DNA from: Patescibacteria group bacterium
Lineage (GTDB): Bacteria > Patescibacteriota > Minisyncoccia > UBA10092
NCBI GenBank assembly: GCA_043812515.1
Contig: JBDRMC010000007.1
Coordinates: 1 to 39,010 of the forward strand
DNA length: 39,010 nucleotides
Direction: 5' to 3'
Shown piece by piece: positions 313 to 1,652 of the stretch. The translations under genes were made by a program, and so were the position numbers. Numbering within the stretch: position 1 is the stretch's first letter; each line of letters opens with the position of its first letter. The notes below the pieces were generated by a model. The model saw nothing but the letters and a program-made list of their open reading frames with translations. It made no database searches and was not told where the DNA came from.

Positions 313-340
313 ACATCTAAATTTGGTATAATTTAGATGT
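313..340. promoter_or_regulatory. 11-bp inverted repeat (313-323/330-340) enclosing an extended -10 TGGTATAAT (324-332)
   Basis: ACATCTAAATT..AATTTAGATGT is perfectly complementary. TATAAT lies at 327-332, 6 nt before the GTG at 339. Confidence 0.4.
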
Positions 341-1652
341 GTTGATATCTCTAATTTTTGTAAATATTTTGGCTTGGGTGTCCTTTTTTAGCGTTATTTT
401 ACTGACTAATCCCCAAAGTGCCGGCATATTCGGCGCCGTTGTTTTATGTATAAGTTTGTTAATGGGCTTGGTTTGTCTCGGACTCTTAATATGGCAGTTG
501 AAAATCCTGAAAAAAAAATTAATAAAAGACCTGCAAAAAAGACATGACCCTGAAGCCGAAAGGCTGAAGCGTTTTCTTGCCATGCCCGATTTGACGCGAA
601 CTCCGGATAGCCCGCTGTCGGAACTTGCCAAACGCATTGTCAGTTTACCTCGTTTTTCAGGATATAAAAATTTAACCGTGCCGGAAATTATTGAATATGG
701 CATAAGTTTTGACCTCTTCAATTTTCCTCCGGACCATCCGGCCCGAAAACCGACCGATACCTATTTTGTCGATAAAAATCACGTTCTGCGGACTCACACC
801 ACGGTTATGTGGTACTACCATCTGAATCTGCCCGATGTAAAGAATAAAATTAAAAAAGGCGAACCGGTCGGCGCGTTATCGTATGGCAAGGTTTACCGTA
901 AAGATGAAATAGACCGCCAGCATATGAATGTATTCCATCAAATGGACGGTTGGTATTTGTGCCGCAAAAAAGACCATATTATAACCATAGACGATTTGAA
1001 GGAAGTTCTGGTTGAAATAGCTCAAACAATTTTTGGCAAGAAAATCAAATATCGTTTTAATGTTGACGATTTTCCATACACGGACCCGTCCATTGAAATG
1101 GAAGTCCAGGTAAATCACCCTGCGGGTGACCACCCGAAGGGTGGTAAATCTCCATATGTAGAAGTTCTGGGCGCCGGCGTGGTGAGAAAATGCGTTTTAA
1201 AAAATCTCGGCGTTGATCCGAAGGAATATAATGGTTGGGCGTTCGGATTCGGCCTTGAACGGCTGGCTCTCATAAGCATGGACTTGCCCGACATCCGGCT
1301 TTTGTGGTCGCAAGATAAAAGAGTTAAAAAGCAATTGAAATTGGGTAATAAATACAGAGAAGTTTCTAAATTTCCGCCCATTATTCGCGATGTTTCGTTT
1401 ATAGTCGACAAAAATTTTATTCCCAATGATTATTTTGATTTGATAAGAGATTTGGGCGGCGATCTGGTTGAAGAAGTGCGGCTTTTGGATAAATACTCCA
1501 ATTCCAAAAAGTTCGGAGCCGATAAATTAAGCTACACATACCGTATCGTTTACAGAAGCGCCGACAGGACTCTTTTATCGGATGAAGTGGATAAAATCCA
1601 GAAGAAAATCTATAACGAAACTGCCAAAAAATTTAACGCGGAAATAAGATAA
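339..1652 (+). CDS. pheS: Phenylalanine--tRNA ligase, monomeric mitochondrial-like architecture (class II core fused to a C-terminal FDX-ACB anticodon-binding domain). Start uncertain (339, 462 or 582).
   Basis: Motifs [56 protein letters not shown]. The C-terminal [10 protein letters not shown]...[20 protein letters not shown]...[12 protein letters not shown] closely resembles the FARS2 C-terminal domain. Confidence 0.85.

What the first reader, a model, noticed from the sequence alone, without database searches (positions are those of the whole stretch)
339..1652. Mitochondrial-type monomeric PheRS instead of the bacterial alpha2-beta2 enzyme
The ORF fuses a PheS-type class II catalytic core to a C-terminal ~95-aa FDX-ACB domain ([10 protein letters not shown]...[22 protein letters not shown]...[12 protein letters not shown]). 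In canonical bacteria that domain is the C-terminus of the beta subunit PheT. The fused arrangement, and the local motifs (DLPDIRLLW; [12 protein letters not shown]), match my recollection of mitochondrial FARS2. No pheT follows the gene; gyrB starts 3 nt later. A monomeric PheRS lacks the B3/B4 editing site.
Basis: partly seen in the sequence, partly recalled or inferred. Interest (0 to 1): 0.65.

Follow-up and report, generated by a model that had tools for sequence, protein, structure and literature searches.

The report
Mitochondrial-type fused PheRS in CPR bacterium
A groundwater ultra-small (CPR/Parcubacteria) bacterium encodes a single-chain phenylalanyl-tRNA synthetase built like the mitochondrial enzyme, which matters because this form is described only for organelles and here behaves as an ordinary housekeeping gene.

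Summary
The ORF carries a PheS-type class II core (Pfam E 2e-56) fused to a C-terminal FDX-ACB domain (E 2.8e-22). gyrB starts 3 nt after its stop, and no pheT domain occurs in the 39-kb window.

Its best solved relative, by sequence and by predicted fold, is human mitochondrial PheRS. All catalytic motifs and the four residues that read anticodon base G34 are conserved.

The gene is not a one-off. At least 581 GTDB species representatives carry it, and the 80 best are all Patescibacteria. It usually sits next to gyrB and evolves under the same constraint as gyrB and nusG.

In a rooted NJ tree the bacterial forms are sister to the eukaryotic mitochondrial clade, not nested inside it.

Two corrections:
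A one-base longer poly-A run (A9 here, A8 in relatives and in four groundwater metagenomes) joins it in frame.
- "Instead of α2β2" could not be tested, because the source genome is not available. The support is indirect but consistent.

I found no paper describing a bacterial monomeric PheRS. I rate it a new member of a known kind, of moderately high interest.

The parts
498..1652 (+). Fused (single-chain) PheRS coding region in the frame that is open in the window: 384 codons from in-frame TTG 498, plus the stop. An alternative in-frame ATG lies at 462.
   Evidence: Homologues are about 375 aa and cover 87% of the 437-aa ORF. The alignment with 31 relatives is A1.
606..1334 (+). PheS-type class II catalytic core. 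Motif 1 HPAR is at 735-746, motif 2 [22 protein letters not shown] at 885-950, the Phe-pocket strand FPYTDPS at 1071-1091, and motif 3 [12 protein letters not shown] at 1233-1268.
   Evidence: Pfam PF01409 E 2e-56. The motifs are aligned with human mtPheRS and canonical PheS. The residues are invariant in 32 CPR sequences.
1365..1649 (+). FDX-ACB (B8-type) anticodon-binding domain. The G34-reading residues are D331 (1488-1490), Y333 (1494-1496), S345 (1530-1532) and the C-terminal R384 (1647-1649).
   Evidence: Pfam PF03147 E 2.8e-22. D331, Y333 and S345 were mapped on human D364, F366 and S375 (PMC7540514) through the HMMER alignment and MAFFT. The C-terminal Arg of human (R414) lies beyond the aligned fragment; the correspondence of R384 rests on the conserved C-terminal Arg in the other eukaryotic and bacterial sequences. 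All four are invariant in the CPR set.
1105..1159 (+). Strain-variable surface loop insertion ([16 protein letters not shown]). It is absent or different in close relatives.
   Evidence: P0005 and P0052 lack it. pLDDT is below 50 at residues 208-216. Metagenome contigs skip 53-62 nt here.
510..518 (+). Poly-A run, A9 in the window. Relatives and all spanning metagenome contigs have A8. The extra A puts the relatives' start codon (ATG 491-493) out of frame and fuses the upstream small ORF to PheRS.
   Evidence: One search reports 'left out 1' at place 510 in contigs of 4/4 runs, including one contig with only 2 other differences in 140 nt. One search agrees.
339..521 (+). Small two-helix hydrophobic ORF, a separate gene in relatives (68 aa in L001, overlapping the PheRS start in another frame). 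With A8 it would end ...WQLKILKKN* at about 521.
   Evidence: Protein-level homology to L001 9825-10031. tblastn finds it only in the window, L001, L009 and L014.
238..299 (+). tRNA-Met(CAT)-like remnant. The 3' two-thirds match the complete initiator-like tRNA of relatives; the 5' acceptor strand and D arm are missing. Homology to relatives begins at 251.
   Evidence: Rfam tRNA scores 25.7 bits against a gathering score of 29. ARAGORN finds nothing. The intact tRNA is in L001.
1655..3604 (+). gyrB, the conserved downstream neighbour of the fused PheRS.
   Evidence: translation; Pfam in L001. gyrB lies within 800 nt downstream in 44 of 70 relatives' loci.

Best explanation
The gene encodes a single-chain phenylalanyl-tRNA synthetase with the architecture of mitochondrial PheRS (FARS2/Msf1). 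It has a short N-terminal helical segment, a PheS-type class II catalytic core and a C-terminal FDX-ACB anticodon-binding domain on one polypeptide. Inferred mechanism, by homology with human mtPheRS: the core activates Phe with ATP through motifs 1-3 and an F-P-Y/T...A pocket. The FDX-ACB domain swings from a closed to an open position and reads G34 of tRNA-Phe(GAA) with Asp331, Tyr333, Ser345 and the C-terminal Arg384. Phe is then transferred to A76. There is no B3/B4 domain, so the enzyme has no cis post-transfer editing. The gene is a vertically inherited core gene of a large Patescibacteria (Parcubacteria, Doudnabacteria and related) clade, and it is most likely the only PheRS of this organism, the canonical pheS-pheT pair having been lost. 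What is shown: domain content, motif and G34-residue conservation, fold, distribution, synteny and constraint. What is inferred: the monomeric state, the activity, and the absence of pheST from the genome. The window copy carries one extra A in a poly-A run at its 5' end. That is most simply a homopolymer-length error or a very recent variant, and the synthetase body is intact.
For: Domains. Best NCBIfam model is pheS_mito, and the relative P0121 passes its cut-off (264 > 258). PDB sequence search: human mtPheRS at E 5e-55, well ahead of bacterial PheS at E 3e-34. AF2 mean pLDDT is 81; Foldseek's top 7 hits are human mtPheRS at E 4e-29 and TM 0.70 over the full length, with bacterial PheS alpha next at E 1e-18 covering the core only. 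The motifs and the G34 contacts D364/F366/S375 of the human enzyme (PMC7540514), plus a C-terminal Arg at the place of its R414, are conserved and invariant in 32 CPR sequences. Distribution: more than 120 clusters at 70% identity or above; at least 581 matches in GTDB species representatives, and the best 80 are all Patescibacteria MAGs of more than 10 candidate phyla. Housekeeping behaviour: the PheRS-gyrB adjacency holds in 44/70 loci. dN/dS is 0.07-0.10, the same as gyrB (0.06-0.07) and nusG (0.05-0.09) in the same genome pairs, with equal amino-acid divergence. Indirect evidence for loss of PheT: there is no B3/B4, B5 or B6/7 in the window or in 1.2 Mb around the gene in 80 genomes. In 9/80 loci a 140-aa stand-alone PheT-B2 remnant (PF01588) sits immediately upstream of the fused gene. 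A Paceibacterales bin that has canonical pheS+pheT shows only one PF01409 and one PF03147 entry, i.e. no fused gene.
Against: The genome outside the 39-kb window was not available, so a pheS-pheT pair elsewhere is not excluded. The 1.2 Mb of flanks is only about 2% of those 80 genomes. Some Parcubacteria do have canonical PheST. The window protein is below the curated cut-offs of TIGR00469 (225 < 258), TIGR00468 and SrmL. Two active-site positions differ conservatively from characterised enzymes: HTT for HTS and FHQMDG for FHQxEG. As written, the window has the relatives' start codon out of frame (A9). No biochemical data exist.
Confidence: 0.78

Rival explanations
1. It is an accessory paralogue, like the NCBIfam family 'PheS-related mystery ligase SrmL' or the Oligoflexia homologue. 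The organism would keep a canonical PheS/PheT pair elsewhere for translation.
For: SrmL is the second-best NCBIfam hit (219 bits) and falls in the same bacterial clade A. An Oligoflexia MAG carries a homologue in a non-housekeeping context. Canonical PheST exists in some Parcubacteria. Genome-wide absence of pheT is untested.
Against: The SrmL cut-off is not met (219 < 300). True SrmL proteins (402-415 bits) have degraded motif 1, FHQ, FPxTxPS and G34-reading residues, whereas the window keeps all of them. The gene is conserved next to gyrB across candidate phyla. Its constraint equals that of gyrB and nusG. The genomes are very small, and relatives keep a B2-only PheT remnant beside the gene.
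Confidence: 0.1
2. It is a recent horizontal acquisition of a eukaryotic mitochondrial FARS2 gene (or of a viral copy) by a CPR bacterium.
For: The closest solved and curated relatives are mitochondrial. A 345-367-aa group in virus-like or phage-like contexts passes TIGR00469, so mobile copies exist.
Against: The CPR clade (bootstrap 100) groups with other bacterial forms in clade A (bootstrap 77). It lies outside clade B, which holds the eukaryotes and the 345-367-aa group (bootstrap 71). Clade A shares the Y-N/S-G state before motif 3 with canonical PheS, and most of clade B has a 2-aa deletion there. Synteny and divergence match the neighbouring core genes across many candidate phyla. A code-25 CPR lineage also has the gene.
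Confidence: 0.04
3. The window copy is a frameshifted pseudogene, or it is really made as a membrane-anchored fusion with the upstream two-helix ORF.
For: The A9 run puts the relatives' ATG 491 out of frame and creates a 437-aa in-frame fusion.
Against: The 384-codon body has no further lesion and keeps every invariant residue. In-frame TTG 498 and ATG 462 are available. All spanning contigs from four runs have A8, including one that is 98.6% identical. A homopolymer miscount in the assembly is the simplest reading.
Confidence: 0.12

Closest known systems
Mitochondrial PheRS (human FARS2, PDB 3CMQ/3TUP; yeast Msf1; TIGR00469; 'PheRS-M' of AARS Online)
   Same: It is a single chain with a PheS-type core plus a C-terminal FDX-ACB domain, and it has no B1-B7 and no editing domain. 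This family gives the best sequence match (190 bits) and the best fold match (TM 0.70, full length). Motifs 1-3 are conserved, as are the G34-reading Asp, aromatic residue, Ser and C-terminal Arg.
   Different: It is bacterial, chromosomal and next to gyrB, with no targeting presequence. Its N-terminal segment is different ([14 protein letters not shown]... rather than ...GRNLHxxxxHPL...). It lacks the insertion that splits the human alignment in two. It keeps the 2 residues before motif 3 that most of the mitochondrial clade has lost. It falls in a sister clade, not within the eukaryotes. It scores below the TIGR00469 cut-off.
Canonical bacterial (alpha-beta)2 PheRS: PheS (TIGR00468) plus PheT (TIGR00472)
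   Same: The catalytic core is homologous to PheS (about 33-35% identity, 122 bits to PDB PheS). The C-terminal domain is homologous to the B8/FDX-ACB domain of PheT.
   Different: It has no N-terminal PF02912 coiled coil, no adjacent pheT, and no B1-B7, including the B3/B4 editing site. The FDX-ACB domain is on the catalytic chain. TIGR00468 is below its cut-off (167 < 237). The canonical thrS-infC-rpmI-rplT-pheS-pheT context seen in L007 is absent.
NCBIfam NF051887 'PheS-related mystery ligase SrmL'
   Same: It has the same two-domain architecture and belongs to the same bacterial clade A in the NJ tree.
   Different: The window scores 219 against a cut-off of 300. SrmL members (P0204, P0206, P0238) have altered motif 1 (SISR/NISR), altered FHQ, altered FPxTxPS (HPYT..G) and lost G34 residues, which suggests a different substrate. 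The window retains the canonical PheRS set.
Stand-alone tRNA_bind (PheT B2-like) proteins of Doudnabacteria and relatives
   Same: They are part of the same picture in relatives: a PheT fragment encoded immediately upstream of the fused PheRS gene.
   Different: None is present in this window. Their function with the fused enzyme is unknown.

Membership tests
Mitochondrial-type single-chain PheRS (FARS2/Msf1, PheRS-M) | PheS-type class II catalytic core with motifs 1, 2 and 3 and the Phe pocket | tested here: met
   PF01409 E 2e-56. HPAR, YRxDxxDxxHxxxFHQxDG, FPYTDPS and [12 protein letters not shown] align with human mtPheRS and PheS and are invariant in 32 relatives.
Mitochondrial-type single-chain PheRS (FARS2/Msf1, PheRS-M) | FDX-ACB anticodon-binding domain fused C-terminally on the catalytic chain, with no B1-B7 domains | tested here: met
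   PF03147 at residues 343-437, E 2.8e-22, full profile; no other domains.
Mitochondrial-type single-chain PheRS (FARS2/Msf1, PheRS-M) | G34-recognition residues (human D364, F366, S375, R414) | tested here: met
   D331, Y333, S345 and R384, invariant in the CPR set. The R414 correspondence rests on the conserved C-terminal Arg, since the human fragment used ends before it.
Mitochondrial-type single-chain PheRS (FARS2/Msf1, PheRS-M) | Closer in sequence and fold to mtPheRS than to PheS alone | tested here: met
   190 against 122 bits. Foldseek E 4e-29 and TM 0.70 over about 400 columns, against E 1e-18 over about 265 columns.
Mitochondrial-type single-chain PheRS (FARS2/Msf1, PheRS-M) | Curated equivalog cut-off of TIGR00469 | tested here: not met
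   225.3 bits against a cut-off of 258.35 for the window protein. The CPR relative P0121 reaches 264.3.
Mitochondrial-type single-chain PheRS (FARS2/Msf1, PheRS-M) | Placement inside the eukaryotic organellar clade | tested here: not met
   NJ tree on 235 core columns: the CPR clade is in bacterial clade A (bootstrap 77), sister to clade B, which holds the eukaryotes (bootstrap 71). The indel character agrees.
Mitochondrial-type single-chain PheRS (FARS2/Msf1, PheRS-M) | Active as a monomer, with no beta subunit needed | not testable with these tools
   Architecture and an AF2 single-chain model only. This needs biochemistry.
Mitochondrial-type single-chain PheRS (FARS2/Msf1, PheRS-M) | It is the only PheRS of its compartment or genome (no pheS/pheT) | tested here: inconclusive
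   There is none in the window or in the 1.2 Mb of 80 relatives' loci. The source genome is not retrievable.
Canonical bacterial PheS alpha subunit (TIGR00468) | N-terminal PF02912 domain, the TIGR00468 cut-off, and a pheT partner gene adjacent | tested here: not met
   No PF02912. 166.6 bits against a cut-off of 237.45. gyrB follows the gene, not pheT.
SrmL, PheS-related mystery ligase (NF051887) | Curated cut-off of 300 bits, and the divergent active-site and anticodon-site residues seen in members | tested here: not met
   219.1 bits. Members score 402-415 and lack the canonical motifs that the window keeps.

The most novel reading that the evidence does not exclude
The single-chain PheRS did not arise in eukaryotes. 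The fusion of the PheS core with the PheT B8 domain happened once in bacteria and survives as the sole, editing-free housekeeping PheRS of a large part of the Candidate Phyla Radiation, with a free B2 remnant in some lineages. The mitochondrial enzyme of eukaryotes (FARS2/Msf1) would then descend from that bacterial lineage by gene transfer.
Probability: 0.35. Interest if true: 0.78.

Novelty: new member of a known kind. Interest (0 to 1): 0.6.

Why it matters
Reviews describe three forms of PheRS: bacterial (αβ)2, archaeal/eukaryotic cytosolic (αβ)2, and a monomer confined to organelles (abstract of PMC3275996; PMC6723311).

A fused, editing-less PheRS acting as a core gene of hundreds of bacterial species would change that picture in several ways.

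- **Origin of FARS2.** It gives a bacterial outgroup for the origin of the mitochondrial enzyme, whose ancestry has been unclear.
- **Translation without editing.** It implies that these bacteria translate without PheRS proofreading of Tyr or m-Tyr.
- **Annotation and completeness scoring.** NCBI names these proteins 'hypothetical'. The pheS and pheT marker models fail on them. From my own memory, both models belong to the bac120 marker set, so completeness and marker-gene phylogenies of such genomes would be affected.
- **A model enzyme.** It offers a small, soluble bacterial model for a human disease enzyme.

Tried and rejected
**Finding the source genome.** Exact look-ups of the PheRS and GyrB proteins returned nothing on record.

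**Finding a CPR PheT seed.** I wanted one in order to ask which lineages have PheT. The canonical PheS representatives closest to the query turned out to be Bacteroidota-like (L005) or an unknown lineage whose PheT resembles those of Lentisphaerae and Omnitrophica (L007). This cost one of the three large protein searches and gave no information on CPR.

**Supplementary gene tables.**
- No PheRS entries in PMC11188291, PMC9530719 or PMC8080830.
- Only the Kuroda tables were useful, and they describe a canonical-type bin.

**Literature searches.** Nine searches found no description of a bacterial monomeric PheRS. The SrmL name returned only unrelated acronyms.

**An apparent deletion of the whole gene.** A contig 'joint' 524->1665 in run X1 looked like a deletion. 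Re-laying the contigs showed a 3154-nt contig that matches only 47 nt and then continues into unrelated sequence. I rejected it as a local-alignment artefact.

**tmRNA upstream.** I considered one at 1-300 and rejected it. Rfam and ARAGORN give only a sub-threshold tRNA, and comparison with L001 shows a truncated tRNA-Met.

**Viral copies.** A viral-contig scan for the 348-aa group found nothing.
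Full report

Yes. Pfam assigns tRNA-synt_2d (PheS-type class II core) to residues 90-332 (E 2e-56). It assigns FDX-ACB to residues 343-437 (E 2.8e-22), covering the whole 94-position profile. gyrB is 1655..3604, so it starts 3 nt after the stop.

The window is a typical housekeeping stretch of a small-genome bacterium. It holds gyrB, secE, nusG, rplK, gatB, miaA, a class II aaRS with an HGTP anticodon domain, dnaE, a MacAB-type transporter, dnaG, rpoD, tRNA-Asn, obg and bipA. 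None of the 20 further ORFs of 150 aa or more that I scanned against Pfam carries a PheT domain; gyrB, nusG and gatB I named from their translations, and a few other ORFs of that size and the smaller ones were not scanned. tblastn with three PheT proteins finds nothing in the window except the FDX-ACB part of this gene.

**2. The 5' end is not what it seems.**

Homologues are about 375 aa and cover only 87% of the 437-aa ORF. The closest ones begin [19 protein letters not shown]. In the window that peptide starts at ATG 491 but runs into a stop after 18 codons, because the poly-A run 510-518 has nine As where the relatives' frame needs eight.

They are homologous to a separate 68-aa ORF that overlaps the PheRS start in another frame in an Azambacteria relative (L001 9825-10031). 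With A8 the window's small ORF would end ...KKN*, exactly as it does there.

I laid Logan contigs from four groundwater or subsurface metagenomes on the region. Every contig spanning place 510 lacks one A, including a contig with only two other differences in 140 nt.

The A9 is therefore a singular feature of this sequence. It is most simply a homopolymer miscount, or otherwise a very recent variant. The synthetase body (498..1652 in the open frame; TTG 498 and ATG 462 are in-frame starts) has no other lesion.

**3. What the protein is.**

- **Solved structures.** The best matches by sequence are six entries of human mitochondrial PheRS (E 5e-55, 190 bits, spanning core and FDX-ACB). Bacterial PheS alpha chains follow (122 bits and below), and PheT matches only through its last 100 residues (36 bits).
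- **NCBIfam.** It ranks TIGR00469 pheS_mito first (225 bits, cut-off 258), then NF051887 'PheS-related mystery ligase SrmL' (219, cut-off 300), then TIGR00468 pheS (167, cut-off 237). No curated model claims the protein, which explains why NCBI names its relatives 'hypothetical protein' while JGI calls them 'PheRS alpha chain'.
- **Predicted fold.** An AlphaFold2 model built on 32 relatives (mean pLDDT 81, pTM 0.69) finds human mtPheRS as its top seven Foldseek hits (E 4e-29, TM 0.70, about 400 aligned columns). The fit is better to the closed form (3CMQ) than to the tRNA-bound open form (3TUP). Bacterial PheS alpha comes next, covering the core only.

**4. Is it a working PheRS?**

The residues say so.

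- Motif 1 (HPAR), the HTT strand, motif 2 ([22 protein letters not shown]), the pocket strand FPYTDPS, LGAG and motif 3 ([12 protein letters not shown]) align with human mtPheRS and canonical PheS.
- They are invariant in 32 CPR sequences.
- The pocket-floor positions are Thr and Ala, as in E. coli PheS T251 and A294 (my knowledge of that enzyme).
- Conservative differences are Thr for Ser in HTS, Asp for Glu in FHQxEG, and Tyr for the second Phe of FPF.

The human enzyme reads G34 of tRNA-Phe with Asp364, Phe366 (Tyr in Thermus), Ser375 and Arg414, and D364G abolishes activity (PMC7540514). In the HMMER alignment the first three correspond to Asp331, Tyr333 and Ser345. The human Arg414 lies beyond the aligned fragment; the window ends in Arg384, a C-terminal Arg that the other eukaryotic and bacterial members also have. 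All four are invariant in the CPR set.

By contrast, genuine SrmL proteins (402-415 bits to NF051887) have lost motif 1, FHQ, the pocket strand and the G34 residues. The window protein is not SrmL-like in function.

**5. How widespread is it, and does it behave as a core gene?**

*Distribution*
- The protein search gave more than 120 clusters at 70-93% identity, all two-domain proteins of about 375 aa. They come from Azambacteria, Taylorbacteria and 'Parcubacteria group' MAGs.
- The 80 best are all Patescibacteria MAGs. Their labels are Azam-, Yanofsky-, Giovannoni-, Niyogi-, Wildermuth-, Lipton-, Zambryski-, Nomura-, Vogel- and Doudnabacteria, Paceibacterota and Minisyncoccia.

*Core-gene behaviour*
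- gyrB lies within 800 nt downstream in 44 of 70 loci with enough flank.
- Between the window and three relatives, PheRS has dN/dS of 0.07-0.10 and 79-83% amino-acid identity. These values are indistinguishable from gyrB (0.06-0.07; 82-84%) and nusG (0.05-0.09; 86-89%). dS is saturated, so the ratios are rough.

This is the signature of a vertically inherited, constrained core gene.

**6. Is it the only PheRS?**

This could not be tested directly. The source genome is not in the collections, and the tools return at most 10 kb around a gene. Four lines of indirect evidence bear on it.

- (a) No B3/B4, B5 or B6/7 sequence occurs in the window or in the 1.2 Mb around the gene in 80 genomes. That is only about 2% of those genomes.
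- (b) In 9 of the 80 loci a gene of about 140 aa sits immediately upstream of the fused PheRS. Its best match is the B1-B2 part of PheT, and Pfam calls it PF01588 tRNA_bind. It belongs to a large family that NCBI labels Doudnabacteria 'hypothetical protein' and JGI labels 'PheRS beta chain'. A beta subunit reduced to a free B2 beside a chain that has captured B8 looks like a dismantled PheT.
- (c) The Paceibacterales bin PMX_810_sub has a canonical pheS (with PF02912) and a 681-aa pheT side by side. Its gene table (genes 5 to 751) holds only one PF01409 entry and one PF03147 entry, so it has no fused gene. Both types therefore exist in the class, apparently in different lineages.
- (d) These genomes are very small, so redundancy is unlikely (general knowledge of CPR).

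I put the probability that the fused enzyme is the sole PheRS here at about 0.8-0.85.

**7. Relationship to the mitochondrial enzyme.**

An exhaustive HMMER search of 1.84 billion cluster representatives gave only 224 clusters with E <= 1e-30. I built an NJ tree on 235 core columns, rooted with ten canonical PheS proteins.

*Tree topology*
- All fused proteins are monophyletic (bootstrap 100).
- They split into clade A (bootstrap 77) and clade B (bootstrap 71).

*Clade A contains:*
- the CPR clade with the window (bootstrap 100);
- an Oligoflexia MAG protein in a non-housekeeping context;
- two proteins including P0129, whose gene has in-frame TGA at conserved Gly positions, which indicates genetic code 25 of Gracilibacteria or Absconditabacteria;
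- the SrmL clade.

*Clade B contains:*
- eukaryotic proteins, namely Schizosaccharomyces Msf1, a chytrid and Vitrella;
- a 345-367-aa group found on 160-494-kb contigs, one of them in a phage-like context. This group passes TIGR00469.

*Supporting characters*
- All 13 clade-A sequences and all 10 canonical PheS proteins share Y-(N/S)-G before motif 3. Most of clade B has a two-residue deletion there.
- The FDX-ACB domains of all fused proteins group together against 24 PheT domains (bootstrap 66). This is consistent with a single fusion event.

The CPR enzyme is therefore not a captured mitochondrial gene. The data are compatible with a bacterial origin of the fused form, from which the eukaryotic enzyme descends. 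However, these are distance trees on limited PheT sampling, so I hold that reading at about 0.35.

**8. Known or new?**

The architecture and mechanism are those of a well-studied enzyme, so this is not a new kind of system. The papers I could read treat the monomer as organellar, and treat the fusion as something that happened in the evolution of mitochondrial PheRS (abstract of PMC3275996). Nine full-text searches found no description of a bacterial single-chain PheRS. Mukai et al. note only that many CPR PheRS-beta lack B2 (PMC5370408).

The sequences sit in public databases under uninformative or misleading names. I file it as a new member of a known kind. The membership caveats are that it misses the TIGR00469 cut-off and lies outside the eukaryotic clade. 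I cannot exclude a description in literature outside the searchable library.

**9. Verdict.**

Interest is 0.6: a specialist would be surprised, and the finding makes the origin of FARS2 and editing-free translation in CPR directly testable.

Noticed in passing
window 510-518 (and ATG 491-493): The poly-A run is A9, where close relatives and all spanning contigs from four groundwater metagenomes have A8. The extra base puts the relatives' PheRS start codon out of frame.
   Followed up: yes
window 339-521; L001 9825-10031; also L009 and L014: A small ORF of about 60-68 aa with two hydrophobic helices (…TNPQSAG.FG…) is conserved upstream of the PheRS start and overlaps it. It is found only in the Azambacteria-like subset, and its function is unknown.
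   Followed up: partly
window 238-299 (breakpoint at about 251): This is a truncated tRNA-Met(CAT). Its 3' part is near-identical to an intact initiator-like tRNA (C1:A72 mismatch) in relatives, but the 5' acceptor strand and D arm are missing. Window 1-250 has no counterpart in relatives' loci. It could be an att-like duplication left by an integrated element, or a rearrangement or assembly junction.
   Followed up: partly
L036 310-735, L039 2920-3366, L053, L066 9505-9963, L073, L077, L078 9486-9914, L083, L087: A stand-alone gene of about 140 aa, PheT-B2-like (PF01588), lies immediately upstream of the fused PheRS in 9 of 80 CPR loci. It belongs to a large family labelled Doudnabacteria 'hypothetical protein' by NCBI and 'PheRS beta chain' by JGI. 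It may be a remnant of a dismantled PheT acting in trans.
   Followed up: partly
L008 8001-9371 (protein P0129): This fused-PheRS homologue has 13 in-frame TGA codons, several at conserved Gly positions (for example AFGI*VERI in motif 3). That indicates genetic code 25 (Gracilibacteria or Absconditabacteria). The database translated them as Trp.
   Followed up: partly
L004 1961-3007 (P0136); P0146, P0164, P0278: A group of 345-367-aa fused PheRS proteins without a presequence clusters with eukaryotic FARS2 and passes TIGR00469. They sit on AT-rich contigs of 160-494 kb, one with tightly packed unknown genes and a PcfJ domain. This could be a huge phage or a giant virus. A scan of IMG/VR with P0136 found nothing.
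   Followed up: partly
proteins P0204, P0206, P0238: The NCBIfam 'mystery ligase' SrmL is a sister branch of the bacterial fused PheRS. Its motif 1, Phe pocket and G34-reading residues are degraded, which suggests a different substrate.
   Followed up: partly
L003 8001-9245 (P0124, Oligoflexia MAG GCA_019694465.1): This is a non-CPR bacterium with a fused PheRS homologue that keeps most motifs (His to Gln in HTT, Glu to Asp in motif 3). It sits among a beta-lactamase and unknown genes, so it may be an accessory copy.
   Followed up: no
window 1105-1159: A 16-residue loop insertion ([16 protein letters not shown]) between two core strands is variable among very close strains. Metagenome contigs skip 53-62 nt here, and the model confidence is low.
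   Followed up: partly
L007 2444-8624: This AT-rich contig (26% GC) carries the canonical thrS-infC-rpmI-rplT-pheS-pheT cluster with a B2-less 705-aa PheT. The nearest PheTs are only about 38% identical (Lentisphaerae, Omnitrophica). The lineage is unidentified.
   Followed up: no
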